The notes under the pieces were generated by a model. It made no database searches. It was given only the letters and a program-made list of their open reading frames with translations, and had not been told where the DNA came from. The position numbers and the translations under genes are program-made. Of a stretch of DNA of 64,000 nucleotides, positions 3,936 through 63,340 are shown piece after piece. This stretch comes from Paraspadella gotoi (Eukaryota; Animalia; Chaetognatha): contig JBJCIZ010000824.1 in the NCBI GenBank assembly GCA_051294375.1, forward strand, positions 1 to 64,000, read 5' to 3'. Within the stretch, counting starts at the first letter, position 1; every line of letters starts with the position of its first letter.

Positions 3936-4319
3936 TGTCGGTAGCGTGACCCTTTACCCTCAGATGTTGATAGAGAGCTATTTCATATTCGATCGATCTG
4001 ACTATGTTTGTAATCGGATTTACCTGAATTAGTAGAGAGTTGAGTTTTAAATTATTCTATTTGGATAATACGTCTTAACTTTACGGAGCTAAAATATGAA
4101 GTGATTTACAATTCTTGCCTCTCTCTCTCGTCGCTACTTTGTTTTGTTACATTTAAATCTTTGAACTACAAATATCATTATATGTAATACATTGAGAGAA
4201 AATAAGAGAGAGACCTAACCTTTACAATTTAAACAAATTACGTGAAACTAAAAATATGAAGGAGGGACAAAATTCTTAGTAAAAATAAAATAGGTTACGT
4301 AAACGAAACATTTCTGACA
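3936..4319 (-). repeat. 3' LTR of family A (384 bp)
   Basis: TGTC...GACA termini; same sequence at 10451-10837 and, diverged and inverted, at 45316-45693. Confidence 0.95.
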
Positions 4320-4330
4320 TTCCCCCCTTT
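4320..4330 (-). promoter_or_regulatory. Polypurine tract
   Basis: Minus strand reads AAAGGGGGGAA directly before TGTCAG; also at 10838-10849. Confidence 0.9.
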
Positions 4331-4830
4331 AAAGAAAATTTTGTCTATGACGCAGTTAACAAAATAGTAACAGACAGTAAATATCACAGAAAGCAATGTA
4401 AAATATCACAGTGATTACAAATGATCACGATCAGGCACAGAATAATAATAAAAAAAAACAAAGCAAAGCGAAAAACAGAGAAATATTTAAACGGCGAGGC
4501 ATCAAAGTAAAATTTAGGTTTCGAGTACAAAAATAGACATTAGAAAGTAAAAGAACGAGTAGATGGCCAGTCCACAAGTCCGAAAAAAATGTAAGCAAAA
4601 TTTTAATAGAGCCTCTATCGTGCCAAGTCGTAAAATTTATTCGCAAACAAAAAAAAAAAATACTTCCCACGCAAACATCAAATTCGACTTATATCCAAAC
4701 CAATTCGAACATTCGCTCAAAAACGCAAATCGCTTCGAAAAACCTATCATCGCACCAATCAAAACGCACAGATATCACAAATAAATTCGTCCAATCAGAA
4801 AGCGCCGCGCCTTCTCCACCAAACCCTAAC

Positions 4831-5992
4831 ATGGTAAGTAAAAATATCACAAAATTCACATCTCCTTCGAAAGTGCGCAATTATATACATAAGACTCTTT
4901 CTTATTTCAAATAGTAATCCAAATCTAAACTCAAATCAAAATTCAAAATGATTTCCGTATTTCTCACAATGATTTTTATCGGCCTTTCGAAGGCGAGCGA
5001 CAACGCGTTGAGCCAAGCGGATGGGCTCGCACTGCTGTGCCAGCAGCCTCAATTTTCTGAGGCTACTGAGTGCCGTAGTGCAGTCACTCCGACTGGTCAC
5101 GCAAACCTCCTAACGGCGGCGTCCGAGACAACGTCGGCTCTGAGCCCGCTTCGAGTTCGACGGCGCCCTCGGTCGCACGTGCGTACGCAATGACGGCCCT
5201 GGAGAAGGTGTTAGTGTCTATCGGCGGCTGCATAGGAACCTATTTCATAATCGTTTTCGTTTTGCGTTTCGCGGCAAAGATGAGTTGGATCGATGCCCTC
5301 ACCCTGGCGGCCAGTAGGGGAAGGGGCCAGGTGCCAGGTGTGTGTGGCATGTGTATCACAACCCAGAGGTGCCCGAGACCTTAGAAATGCAGTCGAGAAG
5401 CGTAAGAGATTCAGAAGTTTAAGTGACAGAAAACTTCGACAGAGCCAGAGCGAATTATTTTAAATATTTTGTTTAAATAAGAATTCTATTTCCATAAAAT
5501 TTAAATAAAAATTTATTTCAGTCTGCCGCTCCATTTTACAACTTACTCGCCAAACTCGGATGGACTTACGGACGAAGCTGCTCCATCCCCGTGAACAAGC
5601 AAGGTACCTTCGGACTCTGCACTCCTGATCAAACCACTCTGTATTTGATCGTCATCGCGTCGTTGACGTTCGTGTGCGTCGCACTCATATTGGGAATTGC
5701 AATACTGCAATGCCGTCTATGCATTGGTAAGTAAAATAAAATAAAGCAATAAAAGCAACATAAAGCTACATGCAAACATAAGGAACATGCAATATAAAAT
5801 TTAACATGCAAATCATTTATAAATATCGTGCTGCAATAACAATAAAAATAAATCTATTCAGGAAACAAAAACTCCAAATNNNNNNNNNNCGTTCCGTGCA
5901 CCCTTTTAAACCATCGCTCGAAAGGGAAAACGGCACCGAAACGAAAATCGAAGTCACAAACCATCGAAATCGAAGAAATGCCCGAGGTCTGA
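4831..5992 (+). CDS. Spliced antisense gene: ~112-aa single-pass membrane protein with FAST-fusogen-like architecture
   Basis: Exons 4831-4833 (ATG|gtaagt), 5522-5726 (tttcag|...attg|gtaagt) and 5862-5992 (ttcag|...TGA); phases 0 and 1 join in frame. Translation: MSAAPFYNLLAKLGWTYGRSCSIPVNKQGTFGLCTPDQTTLYLIVIASLTFVCVALILGIAILQCRLCIGNKNSKYRLPVPCTLLNHRSKGKTAPKRKSKSQTIEIEEMPEV (10 Ns filled from copy 2). The function is inference. Confidence 0.72.
4948..5193 (+). CDS. Antisense ORF-A, 81 aa, signal peptide, two Cys, RVRR furin-like site
   Basis: caaaATG context, TATATA at 4882, N-terminal MISVFLTMIFIGLSKA; identical protein at 11468-11713. Confidence 0.6.
   Translation: MISVFLTMIFIGLSKASDNALSQADGLALLCQQPQFSEATECRSAVTPTGHANLLTAASETTSALSPLRVRRRPRSHVRTQ
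5190..5422 (+). CDS. Antisense ORF-B, small TM protein (frameshifted here; 77 aa intact at 11710-11943)
   Basis: VLVSIGGCIGTYFIIVFVL hydrophobic segment; ATGA overlap with the ORF-A stop; AATAAA near 5504. Confidence 0.55.
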
Positions 5993-6281
5993 GGTAAGTT
6001 CATCTATTACTCATGTGCATAAGTAAACAATTCATTTCGTTCGAATCTGCAAACTATTCAATTCGTTCAACAGCATTCGGTCGGATATTCATCACAATTC
6101 GAAAGCAACATGCATGTAAAAACTATTGTATGAAATTCAATCGTATAAATATAAGTATAAAGAATCGGCACAAATTAATATCGTTCAAAAATAAGATAAA
6201 AATAAAANNNNNNNNNNACATTTCGTTTCTTTTGTATTAACTCCATCGAAGGTGAGTTAATGTCGTGAAAAGTCAAATTCT

Positions 6282-6955
6282 CTATCGATTAGACGGTCTC
6301 GGCTGCTGCGGCCACTCCAATCCCTTCCAAGAGACTGTCCGTGTCGTTCCCAAAACCCAAATAGGTTTGTCCTTCAGCTGCTGCTCATCTTCACAAAATA
6401 GTATTCGGTCTAAAACGTCAAAAAGGNNNNNNNNNNCTTGAGCATTTAGGTGAGTTCGATCGTTTTCGTACAAGTTGTTATCTAATATCATTCTACCATA
6501 CCTTTTGGTACGGAAACAATTTTGCAAGGCATGGAAATGCAAAGCACTCATCTTGAACATTCTGCTATCAATCTCCGCTGCAGCATGATTGAACGTCTGT
6601 CGACCTGTTTTAAAGTCACGACTAATTAGAGTCATCGTCACTACTCTCATTGCCGGGAACCGACTGCACGCCTCCCTCACAAATGCAGACAACTGATCCA
6701 GATACACATCGGCATTCAACTTGGGAGCTAACTCGTTTCCACCTCCTATAAACACCATCGTATGATAGTATACATCATTCCTGGCAATTGCTTCGTGAAA
6801 ATGCGGGAACCGTCCACCGCTGATCGCCGTAGTCGTCGTCCAAGGAATGACGCCATGAAGACGCGAGTACGTGGACGTGTTCGCGAGACCCCAAGAATTT
6901 CGTTGTGCAAGGGTTCTGATGTCGACTCGTTACTTTCCGCTGTCCCGCCCACATT
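6282..6955 (-). CDS. SGNH hydrolase ORF, copy 1 (5' part noisy)
   Basis: GGGNEL and DRTHLN blocks; same protein as 12803-13456. Confidence 0.8.
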
Positions 6956-7064
6956 GTGGGTATGTCGCTTGTAAAGGTAAATAAATAACAATGGTAATTA
7001 GAAATTAACACCTCAATTAATTCCATCTTAAATTATTTTGTTTTCACCGATTCGAAATAAGTTA

Positions 7065-8673
7065 TCAATCCTGATTAATTTTAATGATAACATCAATCGC
7101 TTGATTCTTAGTTAAATGAGAACGAATCAATTGGCAAACAGGAAGAAGTATTATAGTGTTATCTATAACATTTCTTACTTTGTACATTCCTGTACCCACT
7201 CTTTCGATTACTTCAAAGGCTGCAATAATTTTCTTTTGCAATTTCTTATTCATATTAGTTGCAAATGCCATTCTCTTTCGAAATACCACATCACCTTTCC
7301 TCAACGTTTCGTTCGATCGCGAGGGTTGAGATGTTGCTGATAAGTTAACAAATTTGTGTATGCAGCAAGTCGGATGTTTTTTGAGTCTCCAATAACAGGT
7401 TGAACTCTCTTCTATTGCAGTGCTTCCTTCAAAGGGATCCATCTCTGGAGTCAATGCTTTCATTGCATGTCGTCGAGTTACCTGGAACGGACTCTTTCCT
7501 CCCAGAGAAATCGAAGGACACATGTTTATCGAAAACTCAACCTTCTTTAAAATTTTCGCCCATTTACGTAAGTCAGGTTCGTTCTCTAACCATTTTAATA
7601 TACGTATTAGACATATTTGGTTTAATCGTTCAGAATAGGCTTGGTGTCGACTAACATATGTACTCTGTTGCACCTTTACACCCAACTTTTTCAAAATTAT
7701 TCGATCTATTTTACGTTGTGTAACACACTTACCGTCAATGGAAACGCAGTCCCATAACCCATGAGATTCAAATATCTTCATAAAAGCCTGGGCTACGTCT
7801 TCGGCAGAAGTCGATTTAATTGCAATTAGAAAAGACTCTCTACTATATGAATCTCTAATGGCAGAGAAAATAAACCTAAACCCTTGAGAATTTACCAGAG
7901 GTCCCAATATATCGCAAGATAAGATCTGTCTGGGACCCATCGGCATCATCGTAGAAGGTTTCTCTTTTATCGTCGGTTTAATATTGTAACTGATACATAT
8001 ATGACATATTCTAATATTATTAATAATAATGCGTCTCATACCTGGTGCATAATATTTATTCGCAATTAGTTTAAAACAGTATTTGCGTTGCAGTGTCCAT
8101 AGTCGTCATGTACCTTTTCAGTTATCTCAGTCAAATATTTGGTATCAATTAAAATAAGTTTATCTATGTCGCCATTTTCTTTAGGGAAAAGTCGAATGAT
8201 AACGCCTTGATCATTAATCCGAAACAAGGATATATGTCGTAATATCGTTAGGTCCAGGGATTCTAATAGTAACGTATCGCTTTTGTTTGGATGCGAGTCT
8301 TTGTCGTCAATCCATTTTCTCCATTTAGATATCTGGGATGAATCGCTTTGTAATTTCAGTATTTTATCTTTATCGTCCTCCTTCAAAGTCGGAAGTTGTA
8401 TATCATCAAAATCTTTATTTGTTTCTAATACAGGTTTATTAGAGAGCAAATCATTAGTACTTGTCACTTTAATATAATCGGTACTCGTATTTGTCCTTTG
8501 TTTCAAAAGATTTATACAATTACAACAACAAGAACAATGTTCGATAGGCATTTCGCTTAGTCCTTTACAATTACATTTGGTACATGGTTCCGATAAAACA
8601 TCTTTCACCTCCGTTTTCCTTACCTTACCTTTTGCTTCATGTCGTTGCCCCGTTGCAGGCTGCTCGATCTGTT
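7065..8673 (-). CDS. pol 3' part (Cys-rich linker and integrase), frameshifted
   Basis: HDDYGH...CHIC zinc finger; SCDIL, SIDG and YSERLN D-D-E core; GDVVF..AAFEVIER GPY/F-like C-terminus. Confidence 0.9.
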
Positions 8674-11348
8674 NNNNNNNNNNNNNNNNNNNNNNNNNGG
8701 TCTCGATTTTTTAGTTTGATTTGTGTCCTTCGAATAAGTCGGGCGGAACAAGGTAAAAAGCGGCATATTTAGATTTAAGAGTGTTATTTTACAGTTCAGT
8801 AATTAGCGGGGCTTCGTCTCTCGTCGAGAAGCCGAGACTGAGAGGCTAGTGGTCCTCTCCCCGGTCAGTGGGATCTCTCTGCTGGTCAGGGTTACGGTCG
8901 ATGTGACTGCTCTTCATCTCTGCACTCAATCTCAGGAAGGAAAGGTTCCACTTGTCTGCTCCCAGCACACGATTCACTCAGCTCACTCTACTCAAAGATT
9001 TCTTCCCAAAAAAAATTTTCTTCATCCTAAGACGTTCATGCTCTCCCAACCCAACACTCCACTTGTCAATCCAATTCCTACTGTTTTTTTTTTAATTTTT
9101 GCGATATTATAGTTGGTGAGTTTTGTTCTAGTAAAGTGTAAAAAAAAATAATTCCTATTTCAATTCTTTTTTAATACTTTTCGAACTTGAAGTTCGGTTA
9201 TGTTAAAGAGAAAAAAAATTTAATTTTCAGGAAACATCAGGCCGATGCCAGCTGACTTGACCCCGGGAGATAGGGCGTGCGCTTGTGGCGCGGCATGGCG
9301 GCGGGACGTCTCTATACGAGGCGTCCTCGCGTTCTGGCCACGTTGGTCGGCGCGCAAGGCGCGGCGGCCGTCCAACATGGTCTTGTTGCTTCGTCTGGTG
9401 AGGCGGAGTTATTTGGAAATATTACGGATAAGGGGTAGGCGCCCTACTTGGCATGGGGGGCCCTGGTAATGGGCTTGAGGAGCGCCTTCCTCAACTCACA
9501 GTCCGATTCGGGCGGTATATCACCGGCTGTCGTTGCTTTGGCTGGAGTCATATGGTTTCAGGTGGTGTTCATTTAATTTGTTATTATTCCGACTATTGTG
9601 TGAATATTAATATGTGTAAATATGGAGTTAATGTAATGTGGAGTATGTAATAAAGTATGTAAATATGGAGTATGTACATGTTTGTAAAATATGGAATTTT
9701 TCTTTTACTTATTTTCCATGCATCAATATGTGTAGTTTAATGCTGTTTATTTTTTGCTCGTTTATGTTTAATTTTGTAAAATATGGATAAATGTGGCTTA
9801 AGCGACAGATCTAACTTAGTGTTACTGGTTGTTTTGTACTAAAACATTAACTTGTAATAGAAAGGAATGAAATGTTTTGAATTCTTTATTCTTTTCAGTC
9901 GCGAAAAAGGAGGGCTAGCGCCGGAACGTCTCATACTGGACCGCGGCGACCGCCCGTTGCTGATGGGAAGTGGCCGCGTGGGCTCGATGTCCCTATCTCC
10001 GGGTTGTGGCGCGCCCGGGAGGTTCATCGTGGTGGAGGAGGACGGCAGGCAGTGGAGCGAGTGGCGGCTCCGGTTTGTCGGAGGCAACTGTGAGGAATCG
10101 CCTTCTAACCTATGGGGAGTTTTCCAAATGGAATGGTTCCATTGCGTCGTGGAGACGGGCTTCGCCCTGGCAGCGTCTCTGTGAGTATATTTAGGGCTGC
10201 AGTGAATGCTATGTCTTTCTAATTGTGTGGTGTAAGAGACGAGAGAGGAAAGAAAGAAGGAATAAAAAAAACTGAAGGAAAGAAAAATTTAAAAAAGTTC
10301 AACACAGGTTCTTTCACTTTTCTTATTTTTTTGTTAAAAAGAGCTAATGTTTTTCTCTTTTGTTTTTTTTTTTTTTTTGTTTCATTTCATAAGATTATTC
10401 TTTTTTTTTTTTCTCTCTCTTTTTTTGTTTTATCATCTTTTTTTTTCAATTGTCGGTAGCGTGACCCTTTACCCTCAGATGTTGATAGAGAGCTTATTTC
10501 ATATTCGATCGATCTGACTATGTTTGTATATCGGATTTACCTGAATTAGTAGAGAGTTGAGTTTTAAATTATTCTATTTGGATAATACGTCTTAACTTTA
10601 CGGAGCTAAAATATGAAGTGATTTAACATTCTTGCCTCTCTTCTCTCGTCGCTACTTTGTTTTGTTACATTTAAATCTTTGAACTACAAATATCATTATA
10701 TGTAATACATTGAGAGAAAATAAGAGAGAGACCTAACCTTTACAATTTAAACAAATTACGTGAAAACTAAAAATATGAAGGAGGGACAAAATTCTTAGTA
10801 AAAAAAAATAGGTTACGTAAACGAAACATTTCTGACATTCCCCCCCTTTAAAGAAAATTTGTCTATGACGCAGTTAACAAAATAGTAACAGACAGTAAAT
10901 ATCACAGAAAGCAATGTAAAATATCACAGTGATTACAAATGATCCACGATCAGGCAAGAATAATAATAAAAAAAAAACAAAGCAAAGCGGAAAAACAGAG
11001 AAATATTTAAACGGCGAGGCATCAAAGTAAAATTTAGGTTTCGAGTACAAAAATAGACATTAGAAAGTAAAAGAACGAGTAGATGGCCAGTCCACAAGTC
11101 CGAAAAAAATGTAAGCAAAATTTTAATAGAGCCTCTATCGTGCCAAGTCGTAAAATTTATTCGCAAACAAAAAAAAATACTTCTCCACGCAAACATCAAA
11201 ATTCGACTTATATCCAAACCAATTCGAACATTCGCTCAAAACGCAAATCGCTTCGAAAAACCTATCATCGCACCAATCAAAACGCACAGATATCACAAAT
11301 AAATTCGTCCAATCAGAAAGCGCCGCGCCTTCTCCACCAAACCCTAAC

Positions 11349-12514
11349 ATGGTAAGTAAAAATATCACAAAATTCACATCTCCTTCGAAAGTGCGCAATT
11401 ATATACATAAAGACTCTTTCTTATTTCAAATAGTAAATCCAAATCTAAACTCAAATCAAAATTCAAAATGATTTCCGTATTTCTCACAATGATTTTTATC
11501 GGCCTTTCGAAGGCGAGCGACAACGCGTTGAGCCAAGCGGATGGGCTCGCACTGCTGTGCCAGCAGCCTCAATTTTCTGAGGCTACTGAGTGCCGTAGTG
11601 CAGTCACTCCGACTGGTCACGCAAACCTCCTAACGGCGGCGTCCGAGACAACGTCGGCTCTGAGCCCGCTTCGAGTTCGACGGCGCCCTCGGTCGCACGT
11701 GCGTACGCAATGACGGCCCTGGAGAAGGTGTTAGTGTCTATCGGCGGCTGCATAGGAACCTATTTCATAATCGTTTTCGTTTTGCGTTTCGCGGCAAAGA
11801 TGAGTTGGATCGATGCCCTCACCCTGGCGGCCAGTAGGGGAAGGGGGCCAGGTGCCAGGTGTGTGTGGCATGTGTATCACAACCCAGAGGTGCCCGAGAC
11901 CTTAGAAATGCAGTCGAGAAGCGTAAGAGATTCAGAAGTTTAAGTGACAGAAAACTTCGACAGAGCCAGAGCGAATATTTTAAATATTTTGTTTAATTAA
12001 GAATTCTATTTCCATAAAATTAAAAATAAAAATTTATTTTCAGTCTGCCGCCTCCATTTTACAACTTACTCGCCAAACTCGGATGGACTTACGGACGAAG
12101 CTGCTCCATCCCCGTGAACAAGCAAGGTACCTTCGGACTCTGCACTCCTGATCAAACCACTCTGTATTTGATCGTCATCGCGTCGTTGACGTTCGTGTGC
12201 GTCGGCACTCATATTGGGAATTGCAATACTGCAATGCCGTCTATGCATTGGTAAGTAAAATAAAATAAAGCAATAAAAGCAACATAAAGCTACATGCAAA
12301 CATAAGGAACATGCAATAATAAAATTTAACATGCAAATCATTTATAAATATCGTGCTGCAATAACAAAAAAATAAATCTATTCAGGAAACAAAAACTCCA
12401 AATACCGTTTGCCCGTTCCGTGCACCCTTTAAACCATCGCTCGAAAGGGAAAACGGCACCGAAACGAAAATCGAAGTCACAAACCATCGAAATCGAAGAA
12501 TGCCCGAGGTCTGA
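11349..12514 (+). CDS. Copy 2 of the spliced antisense TM gene (single-base indels)
   Basis: Same sites: ATG 11349-11351|gtaagt, exon 12044-12250, exon from 12386. An extra C and an extra G in exon 2 break the frame. Confidence 0.55.
11468..11713 (+). CDS. Antisense ORF-A, copy 2
   Basis: Identical 81-aa translation to 4948-5193. Confidence 0.6.
   Translation: MISVFLTMIFIGLSKASDNALSQADGLALLCQQPQFSEATECRSAVTPTGHANLLTAASETTSALSPLRVRRRPRSHVRTQ
11710..11943 (+). CDS. Antisense ORF-B, copy 2 (77 aa, one TM)
   Basis: Open frame MTALEKVLVSIGGCIGTYFIIVFVLRFAAK...RDSEV. Confidence 0.6.
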   Translation: MTALEKVLVSIGGCIGTYFIIVFVLRFAAKMSWIDALTLAASRGRGPGARCVWHVYHNPEVPETLEMQSRSVRDSEV

Positions 12515-12802
12515 GGTAAGTTCATCTATTACTCATGTGCATAAGTAAACAATTCATTTCGTTCGAATCTGCAAACTATTCAATTCGTTCAACAGCATTC
12601 GGTCGGATATTCATCACAATTCGAAAGCAACATGCATGTAAAAACTATTGTATGAAATTCAATCGTATAAATATAAGTAAAAGAATCGGCACAAATTAAT
12701 ATCGTTCAAAAATAAGATAAAAATAAAATCGATTTACTACATTTCGTTTCTTTTGTATTAACTCCATCGAAGGTGAGTTAATGTCGTGAAAAGTCAAATT
12801 CT

Positions 12803-13456
12803 CTATCGATTAGACGGTCTCGGCTGCTGCGGCCACTCCAATCCCTTCCAAGAGACTGTCCGTGTCGTTCCCAAAACCCAAATAGGTTTGTCCTTCAGCT
12901 GCTGCTCATCTTCACAAAATAGTATTCGGTCTAAAACGTCAAAAAGGATCCTCGTCCCTTGAGCATTTAGGTGAGTTCGATCGTTTTCGTACAAGTTGTT
13001 ATCTAATATCATTCTACCATACCTTTTGGTACGGAAACAATTTTGCAAGGCATGGAAATGCAAAGCACTCATCTTGAACATTCTGCTATCAATCTCCGCT
13101 GCAGCATGATTGAACGTCTGTCGACCTGTTTTAAAGTCACGACTAATTAGAGTCATCGTCACTACTCTCATTGCCGGGAACCGACTGCACGCCTCCCTCA
13201 CAAATGCAGACAACTGATCCAGATACACATCGGCATTCAACTTGGGAGCTAACTCGTTTCCACCTCCTATAAACACCATCGTATGATAGTATACATCATT
13301 CCTGGCAATTGCTTCGTGAAAATGCGGGAACCGTCCACCGCTGATCGCCGTAGTCGTCGTCCAAGGAATGACGCCATGAAGACGCGAGACGTGGCTGTCG
13401 CCGAGGACCCAAAATTTGTCGGCAGCGTTCTTATCGACCGTTACTTTCCGCCCCAT
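12803..13456 (-). CDS. SGNH/GDSL hydrolase (217 aa from the ATG), intact, in the env position
   Basis: Block I VLGDSH (S21), block II ISGG, block III GGGN (N67), block V DRTH (D159/H162). Confidence 0.92.
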   Translation of the reverse strand: MGRKVTVDKNAADKFWVLGDSHVSRLHGVIPWTTTTAISGGRFPHFHEAIARNDVYYHTMVFIGGGNELAPKLNADVYLDQLSAFVREACSRFPAMRVVTMTLISRDFKTGRQTFNHAAAEIDSRMFKMSALHFHALQNCFRTKRYGRMILDNNLYENDRTHLNAQGTRILFDVLDRILFCEDEQQLKDKPIWVLGTTRTVSWKGLEWPQQPRPSNR

Positions 13457-15389
13457 CAATTGGTAGTCGCTGTAAAGTAAATAAATAACAATGGTAATTA
13501 GAAATTAACACCTCAATTAATTCCATCTTAATTATTTTGTTTTCACCGATTCGAAATAAGTTATCAATCCTGATTAATTTTAATGATAACATCAATCGCT
13601 TGATTCTTAGTTAAATGAGAACGAATCAATTGGCAAACAGGAAGAAGTATTATAGTGTTATCTATAACATTTTTTACTTTGTACATTCCTGTACCCACTC
13701 TTTCGATTACTTCAAAGGCTGCAATAATTTTCTTTTGCAATTTCTTATTCATATTAGTTGCAAATGCCATTCTCTTTCGAAATACCACATCACCTTTCCT
13801 CAACGCTTCCGTTCGATCGCGAGGGTTGAGATGTTGCTGATAAGTTAACAAATTGTGTATGCAGCAAGTCGGATGTTTTTGTGAGTCTCCAATAACAGGT
13901 TGAACTCTTCTTCTATTGCAGTGCTTCCTTCAAAGGGATCCATCTCTGGAGTCAATGCTTTCATTGCATGTCGTCGAGTTACCTGGAACGGACTCTTTCC
14001 TCCCAGAGAAATCGAAGGACACATGTTTATCGAAAACTCAACCTTCTTTAAAATTTTCGCCCATTTACGTAAGTCAGGTTCGTTCTCTAACCATTTTAAT
14101 ATACGTATTAGACATATTTGGTTTAATCGTTCAGAATAGGCTTGGTGTCGACTAACATATGTACTCTGTTGCACCTTTACACCCAACTTTTTCAAAATTA
14201 TTCGATCTATTTTACGTTGTGTAACACACTTACCGTCAATGGAAACGCAGTCCCATAACCCATGAGATTCAAATATCTTCATAAAAGCCTGGGCTACGTC
14301 TTCGGCAGAAGTCGATTTAATTGCAATTAGAAAAGACTCTCTACTATATGAATCTCTGGCAGAGAAAATAAACCTAAACCCTTGAGAATTTACCAGAGGT
14401 CCCAATATATCGCACAGATAAGATCTGTCTGGGACCCATCGGCATCATCGTAGAAGGTTTCTCTTTATCGTCGGTTTAATATTGTAACTGATACATATAT
14501 GACATATTCTAATATTATTAATAATAATGCGTCTCATACCTGGTGCATAATATTTATTCGCAATTAGTTTAAAAACAGTATTTGCGTTGCAGTGTCCATA
14601 GTCGTCATGTACCTTTTCAGTTATCTCAGTCAAATATTGGTATCAATTAAAATAAGTTTATCTATGTCGCCATTTTCTTAGGGAAAAGTCGAATGATAAC
14701 GCCTTGATCATTAATCCGAAACAAGGATATATGTCGTAATATCGTTAGGTCCAGGGATTCTAATAGTAACGTATCGCTTTTGTTTGGATGCGAGTCTTTG
14801 TCGTCAATCCATTTTCTCCATTTAGATATCTGGATGAATCGCTTTGTAATTTCAGTATTTTATCTTTATCGTCCTCCTTCAAAGTCGGAAGTTGTATATC
14901 ATCAAATCTTTATTTGTTTCTAATACAGGTTTATTAGAGAGCAAATCATTAGTACTTGTCACTTTAATATAATCGGTACTCGTATTTGTCCTTTGTTTCA
15001 AAAATTTATACAATTACAACAACAAGAACAATGTTCGATAGGCATTTCGCTTAGTCCTTTACAATTACATTTGGTACATGGTTCCGATAAAACATCTTTC
15101 ACCTCCGTTTTCCTTACCTTACCTTTTGCTTCATGTCGTTGCCCCGTTGCAGGCTGCTCGATCTGTTTTTCAACTGCGCCGGCCCCTGACGTGCAACGGA
15201 CTCCAATTCCAGCTCCGTTTCCCAAAACCAGTTTAACGGGTAAACATCTGTCTCTTGCGAATTTATTTTGTTTATCTTAGCTAAGGGCCCTCTTTTCCCC
15301 CCTTTGAAAAATAAATTCAATTCATTACGTTTCTCCTCAGAGAAAACATTATCGTTGGGGATCTNNNNNNNNNNNNNNNNNNNNNNNNN

Positions 15390-30812: not shown

Positions 30813-30830
30813 TTATTATTATTATTATTA

Positions 30831-30908
<78 letters not shown>
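30813..30908. repeat. (TAT)n microsatellite
   Basis: About 32 triplets. Confidence 0.95.
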
Positions 30909-30909
<1 letters not shown>

Positions 30910-45315: not shown

Positions 45316-45693
45316 TGTCAGAAATGTTTTATTTACGTAACCTATTTTATTTTACTAAGAATTTTGTCCCTTCTCCATATGTTTAGTTTTACTTAATTTG
45401 TTTAAATTGTAAAGGTTAGGTCTCTCTCATATTTTCTTTCAATGTATCACATATAATGATATTTTTAGTTCAAAGATTTAAATGTAGCAAAACAAAGTAG
45501 AGATGAGAGAGAGAGGCAAGAATTGTAATTCACTTCATATTTTAGCTTCGTAAAGTAAGGACGTTTCATCAAATAGAATAATTCAAAACTCAACTCTCTA
45601 CTAATTCAGGTAAATCCGATAACAAACATAGATCGATCGAACATGAAATAGCTCTCTATCAACATCTGAGGGTAAAGGGTCACGCTACCGACA
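45316..45693 (+). repeat. 5' LTR of older family A copy 5
   Basis: Diverged reverse complement of 3936-4319, followed at once by TGG. Confidence 0.92.
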
Positions 45694-45705
45694 TGGTGGC
45701 CAGCG
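45694..45705 (+). promoter_or_regulatory. Primer-binding site, tRNA-Leu(AAG/UAG)-like
   Basis: TGGTGGCCAGCG versus the expected TGGTGGCAGCG (one extra C). Confidence 0.65.
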
Positions 45706-46495
45706 CTGCTTCTTACCTTCTTTGCAGCCTCTTTGGGTTTTCCTGCCATGGGGTTGGTAGTTTTTGTTGGGTTTGTCAGGTTCTGGGATTTTCTTTTCTT
45801 TTCCCCCGGGGGCCGAGAGTAGGGGACAGGGTGTTGGCCGTCTCTCATCTTTCGGGCAAATTGGGTGGGTTTGGTTGGACAGGGCGTTGGCCGTCTTTCC
45901 CTTCTCACCGACATGGTTAATATGAATATATATGTACAAATAAAACGAGGGCGAGGTAGTTTTCTCATTCCTCGGTGCTTATAATAGATTTTATTGTTAT
46001 ATTTTGTTAAAATAACAAAATTTATTAATAATAAGTGTTAAACTTAGTAAACGATAAAGTAATAAAAGAAAAATAAAAGAAAATCCAATATATAGATTAA
46101 TTGATATCGGTCAAGTTGTTTCGTTGTGCTTATCACAAATATGAAAATTATTTTATTTTGGGAATTCGCGACGTACGATGGGGTGAGCGATTTATGAAAT
46201 AGTTGATACGATATAATAATTCGATTACAGTTTAACACCTCAGGTGACTGCGAAAGTTTGATACCAAAAAATGGAGAACGATAAGATCCCAGAGGAAGGC
46301 GCGAGAAATACCACGCCCGAGCCTCTGTTGGAAGATGCATCTTCTCAAAAAAAGCCAGAGGTTTTTTTAATATATTCTTTTACCGGCCAATGTAGAATGA
46401 TGGCAATATTGCTATTGTTAAGTTTTAAAAAAATTTGATCATAAATATAGAGAGAGCAAAGAATTTTGAATTTTAACAACGATTTTTATTAATAG

Positions 46496-46540
46496 TTGGA
46501 CATGTTTCGGCTTGCTTAGTTCAAGCCTTCATCAGCATAT
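46496..46540 (-). ncRNA. Minimal type I hammerhead ribozyme of a Penelope-like element
   Basis: Minus strand tg CTGATGA a ggcttg-aactaag-caagcc GAAACATGTC ca: intact core, 6-bp stem II, palindromic ACAUGU stem III, AATAAA downstream; proximal stem I is weak. Confidence 0.75.
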
Positions 46541-46769
46541 GACATTCAATAATAAATTTTGTGCAAAAGAAGAGTGTGAGAGAGAGGGTAAAAGTTTTTC
46601 CAACAAAGTGGTAAGACAGAATAGTGGTCAGATGTGAGGACAGGTTGAAGGTGAGGGCAGATTGAGTGAGTTGTGAAAAGAAGTGAAACTTGTTAAAGAG
46701 AAAGAGAGAGTGAGAGAGAGAGAGAAAAAATAAAACAACAGAGATAAATAAATAATAAAGATACATTTT

Positions 46770-47863
46770 TTGCAATGTACAACAAAGATAAAGGAGTTGG
46801 AGGACTATGAGGTGGAAGCTTTGGCCTCTTTTCGATTGTTGCATGGGGCAGAGTCAGTCCTCTTCTGGTATCGGAAAGCAGACGATACCATTCTGGCTGT
46901 GCGCAAAGACCTCATTGAGGATCTACTAAACCACCTGAACAGCATCCATGTGCGGATCAAGTGGACATGTGAGAGGGAGGTGAATGGGTCAATTCCAATG
47001 CTCGATGTGTTGATTCAACGCAAAGAGGGCGGCTCATTGGAATTCTCAGTATATTGCAAACCAACCCACACGGACAAATACATTCCCTTCATCTCACATG
47101 CTCCCCTGTCTCACAAGCTCGCCACGGTCAGATCCCTTACCAGGAGAGCTGCACTGATTCCGTCGACCCTCGAGCTTCAGGCCGCCGAGCTTGAGCACAT
47201 CAAAAGAGCCTTGGTGATCAATGGCTACCCATTGTGGGCCTTCGAGAAGGCCAGGTATCGGCCGCACCTGGCTGAGGACAGTGGCCAACCAGGGGCTGTC
47301 CAAGTAACCGCTGACGCAGGTTCTACCTCCACCCCCAGGAGGCAGAACGGGAGCTTGCTGCTGAAGAGCCGACCGCGCCCACCACAGCGCAAGTGGAAGA
47401 TAAGCAGAACGTGGGTCACTTGTCCCTCCCCTACCACCAGGGGATCACTGAAGCACTGGTGCGGGTGCTAGCAAAGCAGGGGATCTCCACTTCAGTGACG
47501 GCCCGCGGCTCCCTACGTGAGCAATTGGTGAAACCGAAAGATAAAATCCCCAGACCGAAAACATCAGGAGCCGTCTACTGGGCGGCCTGTGCAGGGGTGG
47601 GCAACCAATCCTGTGCAGCAGCATACGTGGGAGAGACAGGAAAGTCTCTGACAGATCAATTCCAACAACACAAAAAACCTTACCGTGACGCCCGAGGTCA
47701 CTATTTGTCCGCAATTGCTGAACATTCAGCAGACACAGGCCATCTGTTCAGGGAATCAGACTGTCTCGTGCTGTCCCATGACCCAAACTGGTTCTCAAGA
47801 GGTATTAGAGAGGCAATTTACATCAAAGCCCTCGAGCCCTCTTTGAACCGTGACGGAGGATGA
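46770..47863 (+). mobile_element. Penelope-like element, 5'-truncated (RT C-terminus and GIY-YIG endonuclease)
   Basis: WYRKADDT, IKWTCE, IPMLDV, VYCKPTHTD; GAVY..C..C..YVGET..H..SAIAEH..GH..REAIYI..LNRDGG; one frameshift near 47390. Confidence 0.92.
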
Positions 47864-48035
47864 TTCGATCTCCCTCCAAGCTATGATTCGCTTATCAAAA
47901 GAGTGGTGGAGGCCCCGCCGCCACCACGCCCGCACAATGACTCCCCTATCTCCACTCAACGAGACAGGCGGAGACCCTTGCGCAGGCAATGGGCAAACGA
48001 TGCCTCTCCCTCAAATGCAGCAACTCAGCCCGAGC

Positions 48036-51000
48036 AGCTCGAGCAGGGTTTTCGTCGTCTGAAACAGGGAAGCAAAACGATTATGGAATATGCTAGACGA
48101 TTTCGTATTTTCTGTCTGAAATTGGATGAAATGGGATGTTGATTCTCAGTCTTTGAAGTTTATTGAGGGTCTGACGGATCGGATGATTGGCGCCGCTTTG
48201 GTATGATCGAATTATACTAGTTATACGTTTAGGGAGCTTCGTGGTTATGTGTGTGGCCTTAGAAATTCTGTGAATGATCGTTCGCGTTTTGGGATGCGGA
48301 TTGACCGACTGAAAGTTTTTTCTGTTGTGGACCAGGATGATGGTTTTCTTTTCGAAAGTGAGGGGAGTGAGGATGATTAAAATAAATCGAAATCTTTTGT
48401 CATGGTTCAATAGAAATTGCGGTACATTGAACTGGCTGAAAAGAAAAACATCGGAAGGAATGTGTGCTGGAATTGTTTTGACGAAGATTACATGGCCATG
48501 AAATGTCCTAAGAAACGATGCTTGTTTTGAAAGAAAGATGTGCAGAAAGCGAAACATTTCTCTTTAGGCTGTAGAATGGCTCCAAATAATTTTACTTCTC
48601 TCTTGAAAGCGAAAAAGAAACCAAACGATGAAAAGAAAGAGAAAGGCGGGAGAGAAAGGAAAAATAAAAGCGGTAAAGGATGACAGTTTTAGCGACGATT
48701 TTGAGGACTACTTGTTCACTGACTCTGACTCGGATTGACTAGAACGGGTTAATAGGGTTAAAGGGGTTCTTATAGAGGATATTGAACGAAAGAGTAAAGT
48801 CCAGCTCGATCAAGGAAGATCTGTTAATCTTGTTTTGAAATGTGGAGTGAAAAATATAAACAATAGAAACGGTTTTCGTGTTATTTGTTTTGAGGTCGAT
48901 ACGGGCAGCGATCGAACTGTAATTTCTAAACAAGAATGCCTAAGATTAAAATTAAACATTCTAAGATTAACTACGCCAAAGATTTTGGTTGGCATAGGAG
49001 GTGAAATATCCTCTTCTGAATATGTTATGATAACATTACAATTAAACAAAATGGAATTGAATGTTTTTGCTTATGTTATGGGAAATGAAAGTCCAACTTT
49101 GTTGGGAAGTGATGTGATGGGATATAATGATTGTAATATTGATTACGTGACTCGTGTTTTGGAAATAAAAGGCGAACGAATGAAATTGTTTGGATCGATA
49201 CGGGAAGCCAAAGACGAAGTTACAAACGATCGAGATGGGAAACAAAACATCACATTCTTTCCACTTACGTCAAAAACACTCGACCCAGCTTGCATCACTC
49301 CGGTTGAAGTGGAGATTAGTGATCACAACTTTGGTGATTGTCTTCATTCCTAAGTGGGTATTGATCCGAAGGATGGGGTTCATGTTTTGGGCGTTACCTA
49401 TGAGAGAAAAGAAAAAGTTTACAGAGTTTTAGTAATGAACAGGAATAAAACAGAAAGGTCTCTGAGAGCTAGGAAGATTATTAGAGAAGTGGTTTTTGAG
49501 GAAACAGATGAATCGAATAGTGATAGGTGATAGATTCAAACGTAAGTTCGACAACTCCGATCAATGTGGACGACTTACCCAAAGGTTCGAAGTTGACTTC
49601 CCATCAAGCGGATGACGTAATGGAGAATGGAGTGAAGTTTTCACCGCCGCCGAAGTCGTCTGCCCCGGATCTTGTTTTCCCGGATTTCGAAATAGATAGG
49701 GAAGCTGAATTGAAGAAAAATAGTTTGAATGAATATTGGCCTGACCGAGGTGAATTTTTGACTCAGTTTGATTGGAAAGATTTGGAGAAAGAATTATGGG
49801 AATTAGGCTCTGAGAAAGCTAATTACTATCTTGAAAAATATAAAGATATCGTTTGGAATTTTAGTGGAGTGTTTTGGGCAGGTAAATGGAGACAAATGAT
49901 AGAGAAGGTGAATCTTCCCCCTGTTGAACTTCCTATAATTAATGATCCTCTACCGACGATTGATAGATATCGACGGCAATCTCCTGCCAAACTTGAAAGA
50001 TTATGTCCAAAAATTATTGAAAGCTGGTATAATTGAGAAAACATTAGATTCTAAATTTATTTTGAATCCTCACATCGTCAGCCGACAAGTTACGAACCCT
50101 GCGACTGGAGAAACACGATTGAAAAATCGTCTGACTATCGATTATCCTTTGGTAAACAGGTTGATTGAGACGCGTGCTTATAGAATGAAATTGATGGATG
50201 ACATTCTGGCTGCTGCAAGTTGCAAGAAGCTGTTTTCTTGCTGTGATGCCACAGATTATTTCTGGCAAATTGCACTTGCGCCTGCGAGTCGTGACCTCAC
50301 CTGTTTTTACGCCGACAATGAGATTTATCGTTTTTGCGTGGTCGCCATGGGCTTGAAGTCGGCTCCGCAAGATGCGCAAAAGGTTTCCGATCATATTGTT
50401 TCAAAAATGGTTGATTTTTGCCGCGTTTTTGTCGATGATTTCATCATTTACAGCATGACCAACGACTTGCATCTGCTGCACATGTAACAGATCTTCGCGA
50501 CTATGAGTTATTTTAATTTGAAGTTCAAGGCCGCCAAAGTTTCGCTTGGACTTAAGAAACAGACGATCCTGTGGTATTGTGTTTCGTTCAAGAGCATTCA
50601 TCGTCTTCCTTCCCACAAAACTATGTCTTTGCCATAATTGAAGCCTCCGGCATCGAAAGAGCAACTTTAGAGTTTCTTGGGACTGCTTGCGTGGTTTTCT
50701 GGTACTGCATTGCTCAGGGACGCTGCTCTGCCGCTGCGAGCGATGGCGAAGAGTAGCGTTTGATTCAAATGGGGCGAGGAAAAGGAGAATGCTTTCCATC
50801 GGTGTGTGAAAATTCTGTTGGACGATCGAACGGGAGTTCTACGATCTGCTGTTGAGGAAGAAGATTTCGTTCTTTTCACGGATGCAAGCCGCACTGCTCT
50901 AGGAAGTGTGCTGTGTCAGCTGCAGCGACCTTCTGATATCGAAGTACTACAGGGTGCCGATCCTGATGAGAAAAGGTTATATTTAATACAATATTATTCT

Positions 51001-52798
51001 AAATCTTTTGCGGGCGGCGATCTTTTGCTTCCTATTTGTCTGAAAGAATTATTTTCGTTGTCCGAATCACTTAAGCATTTCAAACAATATTTACTGGGAT
51101 GCCGAACACATGTTTTTGTTGACCAGAGAGTCGTTTCTTATTGATTAACTATGGATATAGTGAGTGAAAGAGTGGCGAGAGCTTTGAATTATATTCACGA
51201 ATTTGATATAACAGTACGTTTTATACCTTCGACTCTTAATGCTGCCGATCAATTATCGAGGAATCTAGAATCGAGTGAAAATACCTCTAAAATGCCAGAG
51301 GCTAAAAATGTTTTTCAAAATGTCATAATACGAAATTCTCTAGGGGAACAGATTCCCAACGATAATGTTTTCTCTGAGGAGAAACGTAAAGAATTGAATT
51401 TATTTTTCAAAGAGGGGAAAAGAGGGCCCTTAGCTAAGATAAATGAAATAAATTTACAAGAGTCAGATATTTACCCTTTAAACTGGTTTTGGGAAACGGA
51501 GCTGGAATTGGAGTCCGTTGCACGTCAGGGGCCCGCGCAATTGAAGAAACAGATCGAGCAGCCTGCAGCGGGGCAACGACATGAAACATTGGAACCATGT
51601 ACCAAATGTAATTGTAAAGGATTAAGCGAAACGCCAATTGAACATTGTTCTTGTTGTTATAACTGTATAACAAGTACTTATTTTATTAAAGTGACAAGTA
51701 CTAATGATTTACTCTCTAATAAACCTGTATTAAAAACGAATAAAGACTTTGATAATATACAACTTCCTACATTGAAAGAGGACGATAGAGATAAAATACT
51801 GAAATTACAAAGCGATTCATCCCAGATGTCTAAATGGAGAAAATGGATTGACGACAAAGACTCACAACCGAACAAAAGCGATACATTACTATTAGAATCC
51901 CTGGACCTAACGATATTACAACATATCTTTATTTCGGATTAATGATCAAGGCGTTATCTTTCGACTTTTCCCTGAAGAAAATGGCGACATTGATAAGCTC
52001 ATTTTAATTGATACCAAATATTTGACTGAGATAACTGAAAAGGTACATGACGACTATGGACACTGCAACGCGAATACAGTTTTTAAACTGATTGCGAATA
52101 AATACTATGCACCAGGTATGAGACGCCTTATTATTAATAATATTAGAAAATGTCATGTATGTATCAGTTATAATATTAAACCGACAATAAAAGAAAAACC
52201 TTCCACGATGATGCCGATGGGTCCTAGACACATCTTATCTTGCGATATTTTGGGACCTCTGGTGAATTCTCACGGGTTTAGGTTTATTTTCTCTTGCCAG
52301 AGATTCATATATGTAGTAGAGAGTCTTTTCTAATTGCAATTAATCGACTTCTGCCCGAAGACGTGCCCAGGCTTTATGAATGATATTTGAATTCTCATGG
52401 GTTGGACTGCGTTTCCATTGACGGTAAGTGTGATACTCAACATAAAATAAATTGAATAATTTTGAAAAAGTTGGGTGTACAAGTACAACAATGTACATAT
52501 GTTAGTCGACACCAAGCCTACTCTGAACGATTGAATCAAATCTGTCTAATACGTATATTAAAATGGTTAGAGAGTGAGCCTGACTTACGTAAATGGGCGA
52601 AAATTTTGAAGAAGGTTGAGTTTTTGATAAACATGTGTCCTACAATTTTTTTGGGAGGGAAGAGTNNNNNNNNNNTGCGTTTCCATTGACGATAAGTGTG
52701 TTACTCAACGTAAAATAGATTGAATAATTTTGAAAAAGTTGGGTGTAAAAGTACAACAAAGTACATACGTTAGTCGACACCAAGCCTACTCTGAACGA
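48036..52798 (+). pseudogene. Family A copy 5 gag-pol with multiple stops
   Basis: Same proteins as 20563-25700 (EVDTGS, FVDD, FTDAS, HDDYGH) with in-frame stops; gag 5' part replaced by the PLE. Confidence 0.92.
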
Positions 52799-53121
52799 GG
52801 GGCGTTTACCGCCACAGCTCTTCCCCATCCCCGTCGTCCCCTCCTCCTCATCTCCTCGTCATCCCCTCCTCCTCATCCCTCCGGCAACCCTCGGGCCGGG
52901 ACCAAGGAATTCACTCTCAGCTCAGCTCTCCGGGAGTTGGGCAGAATCGCGCTCAACCTACAAGTCGGGGCACAAGAAACCTCCCTCACTCTCTCTCTTA
53001 TTTTGTACATAACCGTCTTTACTATACTTTAGACTTATTAGACTCCATATCTTAAATTACCTCTTTTCCCTAATGAGAGACTAGTTAGTACCTACCTTTA
53101 GCTAGATACCCATCTTCCCAG
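52799..53121 (+). repeat. Putative 5' LTR of an unrelated element (X) inserted in the copy-5 integrase
   Basis: Reverse-complement copy at 56318-~56935; followed directly by TGGCGCCCAA. Confidence 0.65.
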
Positions 53122-53174
53122 TGGCGCCCAATGTGGGGCTCAAACCCACGACCCCAGGATTAAGAGTCCTGTGC
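53122..53174 (-). pseudogene. 3' two-thirds of tRNA-Lys(CTT) including CCA (extended PBS)
   Basis: Minus strand GCACAGGA-CTCTTAA-TCCTGGGGTCGTGGGTTTGAGCCCCACATTGGGCG-CCA; second degenerate piece at 53197-53246. Confidence 0.8.
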
Positions 53175-55582: not shown

Positions 55583-55618
<36 letters not shown>

Positions 55619-55840
55619 AAACTTTACTTGGACGAGATCAAACAAGACAAATACAGATTCACTGGATCACTCTAGACCGACAACTACTTTCTTACAAAAT
55701 TTTACCTACGTTTTTGCTGAAGATTTTACTACGATTTCTCTACGATTTATTGGATTTCTCTTAGATTTGATCTCGATTTTGTTATGATTCTTTCTTTTCG
55801 TTGTGTTTGTAAATTNNNNNNNNNNNNNNNNNNNNNNNNN

Positions 55841-56316: not shown

Positions 56317-56317
56317 A

Positions 56318-63301: not shown

Positions 63302-63340
63302 ATAATTTGACTTGTCGCGACATTAACTCACCCTCGATGG

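What the first reader, a model, noticed from the sequence alone, without database searches (positions are those of the whole stretch)
4320..6955. Env-less Gypsy element with a bidirectional accessory cassette: SGNH esterase plus antisense small membrane proteins
Seen: the ~2.7 kb between IN and the PPT has no env. It holds a sense SGNH hydrolase converging on an antisense unit with up to three small secreted or TM proteins, repeated in independent insertions. Known: SGNH domains occur in CR1/L2/RTEX ORF1 and, as I recall, as extra ORFs of bdelloid rotifer LTR elements; influenza C HEF and coronavirus HE pair an SGNH esterase with entry proteins. Inference: this may be a non-env cell-to-cell transmission module (mini-fusogen plus lipid- or glycan-modifying esterase). 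I do not know this combination from described elements.
Basis: partly seen in the sequence, partly recalled or inferred. Interest (0 to 1): 0.9.

Follow-up and report, generated by a model that had tools for sequence, protein, structure and literature searches.

The report
Gypsy element with backward membrane-protein gene
A jumping gene that lacks the usual envelope gene carries an esterase-fold gene in its place and, on the opposite strand, a spliced gene predicted to make two small cell-surface proteins that may help it pass between cells.

Summary
The element is a divergent Ty3/Gypsy retrotransposon on the minus strand with no env between integrase and polypurine tract.

The sense ORF is an intact SGNH hydrolase: AlphaFold pLDDT 91, PAF-acetylhydrolase-like fold, dN/dS 0.09. 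It follows a splice acceptor, as in two related elements from other assemblies. SGNH in this slot is known from bdelloid Vesta elements. It has no signal peptide, so the HE/HEF analogy fails.

The antisense unit is a spliced gene. One probable RNA run shows GT-AG joints on that strand, running on into the SGNH ORF, so the units overlap. A diverged contig keeps the first membrane segment with 11 of 16 listed changes synonymous. It probably encodes two proteins, not three: a type I membrane protein of about 160 aa and a spliced single-pass protein of about 84 aa. The latter has some FAST/sORF2 traits but fails several defining ones.

No homologue of the membrane proteins was found, and fusion is untested. 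Antisense accessory genes are known in plant and fungal Gypsy elements; I found no membrane-protein version described. New variant of a known kind; fusogen role about 25-30%.

The parts
3936..4319 (-). 3' LTR of copy 1 (TG...CA on the element strand)
   Evidence: Matches 10451-10837 (381 of 383 aligned columns) and the 5' LTR of the diverged copy, 45316-45693 (355 of 378)
4320..4330 (-). Polypurine tract
   Evidence: Purine run directly before the LTR on the element strand
4755..4887 (+). Candidate internal antisense promoter: two CCAAT boxes (4755, 4791) and a TATA-like run (4882)
   Evidence: Motif positions only; motif meaning recalled; no start site shown, no RNA contig covers it
4831..4839 (+). 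Candidate first-exon end: ATG followed at once by a GTAAGT donor; its phase fits the acceptor of ORF C
   Evidence: Sequence only; this splice was not seen in RNA
4948..5193 (+). ORF A: predicted signal peptide, a cysteine pair, Ser/Thr/Ala/Pro-rich stalk; likely the N-terminal half of one type I membrane protein with ORF B
   Evidence: N-terminal 12-residue hydropathy 2.57. An RNA contig differs by an indel in the last third and joins the frames. Two substitutions in that contig fall on synonymous third positions of frame A (worked by hand)
5190..5422 (+). ORF B: transmembrane helix with GxxxG and a cytoplasmic tail ending in a class I PDZ-type motif (copy 2, 11710-11943; copy 1 has an indel in a G run)
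   Evidence: Hydropathy 2.45. A diverged RNA contig has 11 of 16 listed substitutions synonymous in this frame, null mean 4.5, p=0.0003. C-terminus; motif labels recalled
5522..5726 (+). ORF C exon 1: about 40-aa N-terminal part with a Cys-x12-Cys pair, transmembrane helix, Cys-x-x-Cys; no in-frame ATG, so it needs an upstream exon
   Evidence: Hydropathy 2.91; an RNA contig agrees with the copy-1 frame; no homologue
5727..5861 (+). Intron (135 nt, GT..AG)
   Evidence: RNA joint 12249>12385 in copy-2 coordinates
5862..5993 (+). ORF C exon 2: basic cluster, then stop. The tail after the membrane segment is 21 aa in copies 2-4 and the RNA contig, 49 aa in copy 1
   Evidence: Each copy translated as it stands; RNA contig 12385-12515
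5994..6073 (+). Intron (80 nt, GT..AG) in the 3' untranslated part
   Evidence: A 28-letter loose end at 12594 equals the end of exon 2; positions
6450..6583 (+). Antisense intron inside the SGNH ORF with two acceptors (79 nt to 6528, 134 nt to 6583)
   Evidence: RNA joints 12968>13048 and 12968>13103, GT..AG; donor and acceptors kept in the diverged copy
6282..6950 (-). SGNH hydrolase ORF (5' end garbled in this copy; intact at 12803-13456)
   Evidence: Ser21, Gly40/41, Asn67, Asp159/His162. 22 of 25 family members hit Lipase_GDSL_2 at E<=0.01. Model pLDDT 90.9; Foldseek TM about 0.6 to PAF-acetylhydrolase and sialate O-acetylesterase; dN/dS 0.09
6955..7064 (-). Pyrimidine-rich 3' splice acceptor between the integrase stop and the SGNH start (clean in copies 2-4)
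   Evidence: same layout in L001 and L002; AG not kept in the diverged window copy; no sense splice seen in RNA
7065..8039 (-). Integrase core and SH3-like C-terminus
   Evidence: Pfam rve E=0.0027, SH3_Tf2-1 E=0.00037, both below cut-off; 47% identical to L001 integrase
10451..15364 (-). Copy 2: second insertion with a different 3' flank, whole accessory region, intact SGNH
45316..63342 (+). Diverged copy (about 89%): 5' LTR and primer-binding site, interrupted gag, pol, then integrase end and SGNH at 62457-63342, cut before the antisense ORFs

Best explanation
This env-less Gypsy element carries two separate accessory units: an SGNH esterase in the env slot, likely made from a spliced sense RNA, and an antisense intron-containing gene predicted to encode two small single-pass membrane proteins that likely act at the cell surface to help particles leave or pass to a neighbouring cell. 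SHOWN: no env; SGNH fold with intact catalytic residues under purifying selection; an acceptor before SGNH in the window and in both related loci; antisense GT-AG splicing; synonymous bias in the first membrane ORF. INFERRED: (1) The antisense orientation lets the introns survive, because the packaged sense RNA does not present them to the spliceosome. (2) An internal promoter near 4750-4900 drives the unit. (3) A and B form one type I protein of about 160 aa (about 65-70% likely). (4) C is an N-out protein of about 84 aa whose start comes from an upstream exon. (5) C works like FAST/sORF2 proteins, with A-B as an adhesion or targeting partner. (6) The esterase works separately in the cytosol on lipids or acyl groups. 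I put the anatomy at about 0.8 and the transfer role at about 0.3-0.4.
For: SGNH. Acceptor plus SGNH behind integrase in 2 of 2 related loci found; in L002 the frame opens at the acceptor with no ATG for the first residues. Antisense splicing: three GT..AG joints and one matching loose end, all on the + strand, in run X1; one joint is on a contig with 23 differences in 207 nt, so a diverged subfamily splices too. Selection on ORF B: 11 of 16 synonymous, p=0.0003, and the only frame of six with both no stop and mostly silent changes. Exon/intron G+C contrast. ORF C has one membrane helix, 4 Lys/Arg in the first 15 residues after it, cysteines at the membrane edge and a Cys pair in a short N-terminal part. 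These resemble p10 FAST traits (PMC7412057) and fit the 63-107 aa range of sORF2-like proteins. In 500 simulated regions of the same length, 7 had one such helix and 1 had helix plus basic cluster plus Cys pair (crude first-order null, unspliced frames only).
Against: No homologue of A, B or C in Pfam, PHROGs, PDB, the exact look-up, or (C exon 1 only) the large protein search. The antisense unit could not be read in any related element: L001 and L002 end about 270 nt after SGNH. All RNA evidence is one run of contigs that is only guessed to be RNA, laid at 80-85% likeness; two of the three joints have fewer than 30 letters on the short side. ORF C has no shown start, no myristoylation motif at its candidate start, and a 21-aa tail in 3 of 4 copies, shorter than the 40-140 aa FAST endodomain. 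All 105 sORF2-like ORFs are in forward orientation. An antisense RNA overlapping SGNH would be expected to oppose, not accompany, genomic RNA. Basic residues after a membrane helix and cysteine pairs are common in single-pass proteins (established knowledge). Both window copies hold A and B in different frames.
Confidence: 0.4

Rival explanations
1. The antisense gene is a latency or regulatory unit, like plant and fungal antisense ORFs and HTLV-1 antisense genes. It would be expressed while gag-pol is silent; its overlap with SGNH would damp the element through double-stranded RNA, and the membrane proteins would block reinfection or modulate the host cell.
For: The antisense RNA runs into the SGNH ORF, and all joints listed are antisense while no sense splice was listed. 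Further introns lie behind the stop of C. Antisense ORFs with their own promoter and a possible silencing role are described (PMC7264820; PMC11963269).
Against: Described antisense products are nuclear or DNA-binding, not membrane proteins. Unstranded contigs of one run cannot show when or where either strand is expressed.
Confidence: 0.27
2. The antisense unit is a captured host-gene fragment that rides along without serving the element.
For: It has ordinary exon-intron structure. It was not seen in any related element. Both window copies appear broken between A and B.
Against: A contig about 12% diverged keeps frame B with no gap and mostly silent changes. A diverged contig uses the same splice donor. 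No host homologue was found for C exon 1. That diverged contig could, however, come from a host gene instead of a sister element.
Confidence: 0.17
3. One reading: esterase and small membrane proteins form one entry module like influenza C HEF or coronavirus HE, with the esterase trimming surface glycans or lipids.
For: Sialate O-acetylesterases are among the top fold matches. The A-B stalk is Ser/Thr-rich. Membrane penetration has been suggested for bdelloid GDSL ORFs (PMC5408684).
Against: The esterase has no signal peptide or membrane segment. Fold matches are generic (12-17% identity, cytosolic PAF-acetylhydrolase equally high). The units are on opposite, overlapping strands. The bdelloid paper itself reads GDSL ORFs as auxiliary because they lack membrane and coiled-coil segments.
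Confidence: 0.07
4. Anatomical rival, compatible with any role above: A and B are separate proteins coupled by an overlapping stop-start, giving three products.
For: Both window copies agree, and the stop of A overlaps the ATG of B.
Against: One RNA contig joins the frames. The B frame upstream of its ATG is open and continues the Ser/Thr/Ala/Pro-rich stalk, whereas the end of A is Arg-rich. Single-base indel noise is frequent in this assembly.
Confidence: 0.3

Closest known systems
Bdelloid Vesta LTR retrotransposons with GDSL/SGNH ORF3 (PMC5408684; parts 2 and 3 of 5 of the text read)
   Same: Env-less Ty3/Gypsy element with a stand-alone SGNH ORF after pol, catalytic residues intact, no membrane segment.
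   Different: Vesta elements have dUTPase between protease and RT (no Pfam match to it in the pol pieces scanned here). No antisense unit is described in the parts read. Relationship of the esterases was not tested, as no Vesta sequence was at hand.
sORF2 of Drosophila MDG1-group elements (10.1101/2025.03.14.642691; passages and sections 7 and 10 read; supplements not seen)
   Same: Env-less Gypsy element with a small single-pass protein, short N-terminal part and basic cluster after the helix; some lie downstream of pol.
   Different: sORF2-like ORFs are all forward, on unspliced transcripts in the cases read, and selected by an N-myristoylation motif. ORF C is antisense, spliced, lacks that motif at its candidate start and is accompanied by a second membrane protein.
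Reovirus p10 FAST proteins (PMC7412057, passages)
   Same: Short N-terminal part with a cysteine pair, one helix, cysteines at the inner membrane edge, basic cluster.
   Different: No sequence similarity shown. Cys-x-x-Cys instead of a di-cysteine; about 84 aa instead of 100-200; tail 21 aa in most copies with no clear amphipathic helix; no fusion data.
Antisense additional ORFs of Gypsy elements: maize Grande gene23, Retand TRP28 ORFs, Botrytis Boty brtn; HTLV antisense genes (PMC7264820, PMC11963269, 10.1101/2021.04.13.439636; passages)
   Same: Extra gene between pol and the 3' LTR on the opposite strand, with its own promoter in Grande.
   Different: Those are from plants, fungi and a retrovirus, and their characterised products are nuclear or predicted DNA-binding. 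Here the products are predicted membrane proteins in a probable animal host, and the transcript overlaps a sense enzyme gene.
SGNH esterase of LINE ORF1p, ZfL2-1 (PMC3905857, abstract; PDB 4c1b)
   Same: Same fold (profile hit E=8.1e-5), retroelement-borne, lipid-binding precedent.
   Different: There it is a domain of ORF1p in non-LTR elements; here it is a separate ORF after integrase, and other SGNH structures score higher.

Membership tests
Ty3/Gypsy LTR retrotransposon | LTRs with TG...CA ends, primer-binding site and polypurine tract | tested here: met
   LTRs 3936-4319, 10451-10837, 45316-45693; TGG-starting PBS at 45694; PPT 4320-4330
Ty3/Gypsy LTR retrotransposon | Domain order protease-RT-RNase H-integrase | tested here: met
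   Window: protease, RT, integrase in order. L001: RT, RNase H, integrase in one ORF; best solved match Ty3 RT, E=4.6e-21
Env-bearing Gypsy (errantivirus-like) | Env glycoprotein ORF between integrase and 3' LTR | tested here: not met
   The only long sense ORF is the 217-aa SGNH, without a hydrophobic segment
SGNH/GDSL hydrolase | Catalytic Ser, Gly, Asn, His in four blocks | tested here: met
   S21 and N67 invariant, G40/G41 and H162 in at least 90% of 25 sequences; D-x-x-H at 159-162
SGNH/GDSL hydrolase | SGNH alpha/beta fold | tested here: met
   pLDDT 90.9, pTM 0.87; Foldseek E=6.6e-7, TM 0.60, 47 matches at E<=0.001. Pfam alone is below the curated cut-off (18.6 against 32.9 bits)
SGNH/GDSL hydrolase | Esterase activity and substrate | not testable with these tools
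   Needs an enzyme assay
Haemagglutinin-esterase type module (HE/HEF) | Secreted or membrane-anchored esterase joined to a receptor-binding domain (definition recalled) | tested here: not met
   No signal peptide or membrane segment by hydropathy; family members are stand-alone, 135-285 aa
sORF2/FAST-like proteins (ORF C) | Small single-pass membrane protein | tested here: met
   One helix, hydropathy 2.91; about 84 aa if the start comes from an upstream exon, within 63-107 aa for sORF2-like and below 100-200 aa for FAST
sORF2/FAST-like proteins (ORF C) | At least 3 Lys/Arg within 15 residues after the helix | tested here: met
   4 such residues across the RNA-supported junction (criterion)
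sORF2/FAST-like proteins (ORF C) | Ectodomain under 40 aa (about 30 in sORF2-like) | tested here: inconclusive
   About 40 aa, and the start exon is unverified
sORF2/FAST-like proteins (ORF C) | Acylation: N-terminal MGxxxS/T, or di-cysteine after the helix | tested here: inconclusive
   No Gly after the candidate Met; Cys-x-x-Cys at the helix end is not a di-cysteine
sORF2/FAST-like proteins (ORF C) | Endodomain of about 40-140 aa with amphipathic helix (FAST) | tested here: not met
   21 aa in 3 of 4 copies and the RNA contig, 49 aa in copy 1
sORF2/FAST-like proteins (ORF C) | Forward orientation relative to gag-pol (all 105 sORF2-like) | tested here: not met
   Antisense and spliced
sORF2/FAST-like proteins (ORF C) | Cell-cell fusion or transfer activity | not testable with these tools
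   Needs cell assays
Antisense additional ORF between pol and 3' LTR (aORF-3R) | Coding unit antisense to gag-pol, between pol and 3' LTR, transcribed | tested here: met
   Position; + strand GT..AG joints in a probable RNA run; synonymous bias
Antisense additional ORF between pol and 3' LTR (aORF-3R) | Present in most copies and in related families | tested here: inconclusive
   Whole in 2 near-identical copies, partly in one diverged RNA contig; related loci too short

The most novel reading that the evidence does not exclude
A deep, undescribed Gypsy clade has replaced env with a two-strand cassette. A spliced sense esterase is shared across the clade, and this family adds an intron-bearing antisense gene for a p10-like minimal fusogen plus a PDZ-targeted adhesin. 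That would be an env-independent transfer system outside insects, expressed from its own promoter and possibly in a different cell type from gag-pol.
Probability: 0.25. Interest if true: 0.85.

Novelty: new variant of a known kind. Interest (0 to 1): 0.58.

Why it matters
Env-independent cell-to-cell spread of retrotransposons has been shown only for insect sORF2, found by a screen that required N-myristoylation motifs and canonical starts. An antisense, spliced, cysteine-type candidate would escape such screens, so the route could be more widespread than counted. Even without fusion, the element extends antisense accessory genes of Gypsy elements to membrane proteins. It also defines a family of at least 23 unnamed stand-alone SGNH proteins, two of which sit behind a Gypsy integrase and a splice acceptor, which makes the open question of what retroelement esterases do testable in a new clade.

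Tried and rejected
Genome-wide test: no whole genome is held for this window, so copy number and co-occurrence across the genome were not measured.

Searches that found nothing: the word-indexed search with SGNH (0 of 41 candidates); scans of metagenome and viral contigs with the single SGNH protein; scans of viral and prokaryotic contigs with the integrase alignment. The RT search returned 1 protein of 328 candidates, 30% identical, too little to place the clade. The ESM Atlas was unavailable.

The first fold, on 2 sequences, was unusable (pLDDT 35.6). No run on record as RNA was listed; X2 and X3 laid nothing. The first 280 nt of the second lay, holding the candidate first exon, had no cover, which proves nothing. 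Contig depths were not used to rank genes, and no silent control stretch could be laid.

Rejected ideas. N-myristoylation of the SGNH: its start fits MGxxxT, but most relatives do not. A long basic tail for ORF C: only copy 1 has it. An in-frame splice from the tail of B into C giving a two-helix protein: a donor-like site exists, but an RNA contig runs unspliced through it. Coding on the element strand opposite ORF B: that mirror frame has a stop. No complex prediction was run, since short membrane peptides without relatives would not give a verdict. No tRNA gene lies in the window.

Not-in-print claim: seven literature searches gave no listing that describes this combination. Repbase and GyDB could not be searched, and bioRxiv supplements were not seen.
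Full report
1. THE ELEMENT. The finding lies in the 3' part of an LTR retrotransposon on the minus strand: 3' LTR 3936-4319, polypurine tract 4320-4330, integrase ending at 7065. Protease, RT and integrase match Pfam in Gypsy order. A related pol in L001 has RT, RNase H and integrase in one frame, with Ty3 RT as its best solved match. The lineage is remote: the RT search returned 1 protein of 328 candidates, at 30% identity. No whole genome is held. The host is probably an animal, inferred from a neighbouring BEL/Pao element and not established.

2. COPIES. The window holds four near-identical pieces and one copy about 89% identical. Copies 1 and 2 have different flanks and so look like two insertions, but they differ at only 2 of 1552 aligned columns plus 22 internal gap positions, the pattern of noisy long-read assembly. 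Copies 3 and 4 begin at the same base after 25-N gaps and share 10 indels; I treat them as redundant. The diverged copy keeps SGNH but is cut about 40 nt after its stop, so it says nothing on the antisense ORFs.

3. NO ENV, AND A REAL SGNH. The only long sense ORF in the 2.7 kb is a 217-aa protein, intact in copy 2 and the diverged copy. Between them dN is 0.035 and dS 0.386 (ratio 0.09), like protease (0.09) and the integrase N-terminal block (0.06). A full-library search found 23 relatives at E<=0.001, all 135-285 aa; none of the members read in 20 of those clusters carries a name. Ser21 and Asn67 are invariant and His162 nearly so. 22 of 25 members hit Lipase_GDSL_2 at E<=0.01, the window protein itself below Pfam's cut-off. 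The model has pLDDT 90.9 and matches PAF-acetylhydrolases and sialate O-acetylesterases at TM about 0.6 and 12-17% identity, which fixes the fold but not the substrate. There is no signal peptide or membrane segment.

4. SGNH SITS IN THE ENV SLOT ACROSS A CLADE. Using 9 sequences from the two clusters nearest the window protein that have metagenome members, 2 loci were recovered from 443 pattern matches. In both, SGNH follows a Gypsy integrase and a pyrimidine-rich acceptor; the L001 integrase is 47% identical to the window's. Copies 2-4 have the same kind of acceptor, but the diverged copy lacks the AG. I infer an env-style spliced sense RNA; no such joint was listed in RNA, and one contig runs through the site unspliced. 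Both loci end about 270 nt after SGNH.

5. THE ANTISENSE UNIT IS A SPLICED GENE. One run, guessed to be RNA, holds half the words of the region. Its contigs show three GT..AG joints on the + strand, antisense to gag-pol: one between the exons of ORF C and two inside the SGNH ORF. A loose end matches a further intron. The antisense RNA therefore overlaps SGNH. Caveats: one run, contigs only, low likeness threshold, and two joints with under 30 letters on the short side. A gap-free contig with 23 differences in 192 nt covers the helix of ORF B. Of the 16 differences listed (those away from its ends), 11 are synonymous in frame B against 4.5 expected (p=0.0003, 20,000 draws), and no other frame is both stop-free and mostly silent.

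6. TWO PROTEINS, PROBABLY. A contig of the near-identical family differs from both window copies by an indel in the last third of ORF A and reads A and B in one frame. That gives a predicted type I protein of about 160 aa: signal peptide, cysteine pair, Ser/Thr/Ala/Pro stalk, helix with GxxxG, and a tail ending in a class I PDZ-type motif (labels recalled, no SignalP or TMHMM run). I put this at 65-70%; an overlapping stop-start is the alternative. ORF C has no in-frame ATG and needs an upstream exon. An ATG followed by a GTAAGT donor at 4831 fits in phase but is unconfirmed. C would be about 84 aa, with a 21-aa tail in 3 of 4 copies and in the RNA contig. No homologue of any of these was found.

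7. MECHANISM. LTR elements copy their sense RNA, so an intron-bearing gene can be kept only on the other strand (established knowledge). I commit to a cell-surface role in particle exit or transfer, with C working like sORF2/FAST proteins, at an overall confidence of 0.4. C meets the single-helix and basic-cluster criteria. It is inconclusive on ectodomain length and acylation, and fails on endodomain length and orientation, so it is not filed as a member. The main rival is a latency or self-silencing unit (0.27), favoured by the overlap with SGNH. Hitch-hiking capture (0.17) and an HE/HEF-like module (0.07) follow.

8. WHAT IS KNOWN. SGNH ORF3 in env-less Gypsy elements is published for bdelloid rotifers (PMC5408684, parts 2-3 of 5 read; PMC6431247, passages). 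A LINE esterase has been solved and binds lipids (PMC3905857, abstract). sORF2-mediated transfer is published (10.1101/2025.03.14.642691, passages and two sections; PMC13486581, passages; PMC12945298, passages). Antisense extra genes are published for plant and fungal Gypsy elements (PMC7264820, PMC11963269, 10.1101/2021.04.13.439636, PMC8220671; passages). A survey of env-bearing metazoan elements has no occurrence of 'antisense', 'esterase' or 'sORF2' (PMC13524379, term search). Unchecked notes of this scan report SGNH in other Gypsy elements and spliced antisense genes in fungal ones; they lowered my novelty estimate and led me to brtn. Seven literature searches listed no paper with an antisense spliced membrane-protein gene beside an SGNH ORF. 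Repbase and GyDB were not searchable.

9. VERDICT. A real feature and a new variant of known kinds. Each ingredient has precedent; the combination, the membrane nature of the antisense products and the integrase-acceptor-SGNH clade were not found in print. Interest 0.58; 0.85 if fusion or transfer activity is shown (probability about 0.25).

Noticed in passing
window 51580-51670 (+) and 8510-8600 (-); L001 about 2420-2560: A long linker between RNase H and integrase holds a cysteine-rich motif (Cys-x2-Cys-x-Cys ... His-Cys-x-Cys) in both the window element and L001, where the linker is several hundred residues long; possibly a metal-binding module typical of this clade.
   Followed up: no
window 50445-50460 (+); L001 about 585-600: The RT catalytic motif reads FVDD in the window family and YIDD in L001; only one database protein matched the RT, at 30% identity.
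   Followed up: partly
window 46390-48035: An insertion in the gag region of the diverged copy has ORFs that look like a Penelope-type RT end and GIY-YIG endonuclease; the label is recalled from motifs, Pfam gave no support.
   Followed up: no
window 38000-44200 (-): A BEL/Pao element in pieces (Peptidase_A17 E=3.3e-42); with the other repeats it suggests an animal host and a dense nest of mobile elements.
   Followed up: no
window 35608-36297 (+): An open frame with four cysteine-rich ephrin-receptor-like repeats (E=1.5e-14), probably a host exon or a passenger of another element.
   Followed up: no
window 55841-56317: An inverted piece of the same integrase lies between the two halves of the diverged copy, beside a 25-N gap; rearrangement or misassembly.
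   Followed up: no
window 13389 and 13441 (loose ends of run X1): Two loose ends translate by eye to a more diverged SGNH N-terminus with a start codon at the same position, hinting at further subfamilies in the same organism.
   Followed up: partly
L001 5200-5220: A CCAAT box and a short palindromic motif lie about 200 nt after the SGNH stop, a possible internal promoter; the contig ends soon after.
   Followed up: no
window 29650-32150: Two arrays of an 18-nt tandem repeat flanked by dispersed repeats of about 90-130 nt.
   Followed up: no
alignment A2 (P0002-P0024): The SGNH family has a conserved His-x-His motif, an invariant Arg after the third strand and often a C-terminal Trp-Lys-Phe; none of the members read carries a name.
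   Followed up: partly
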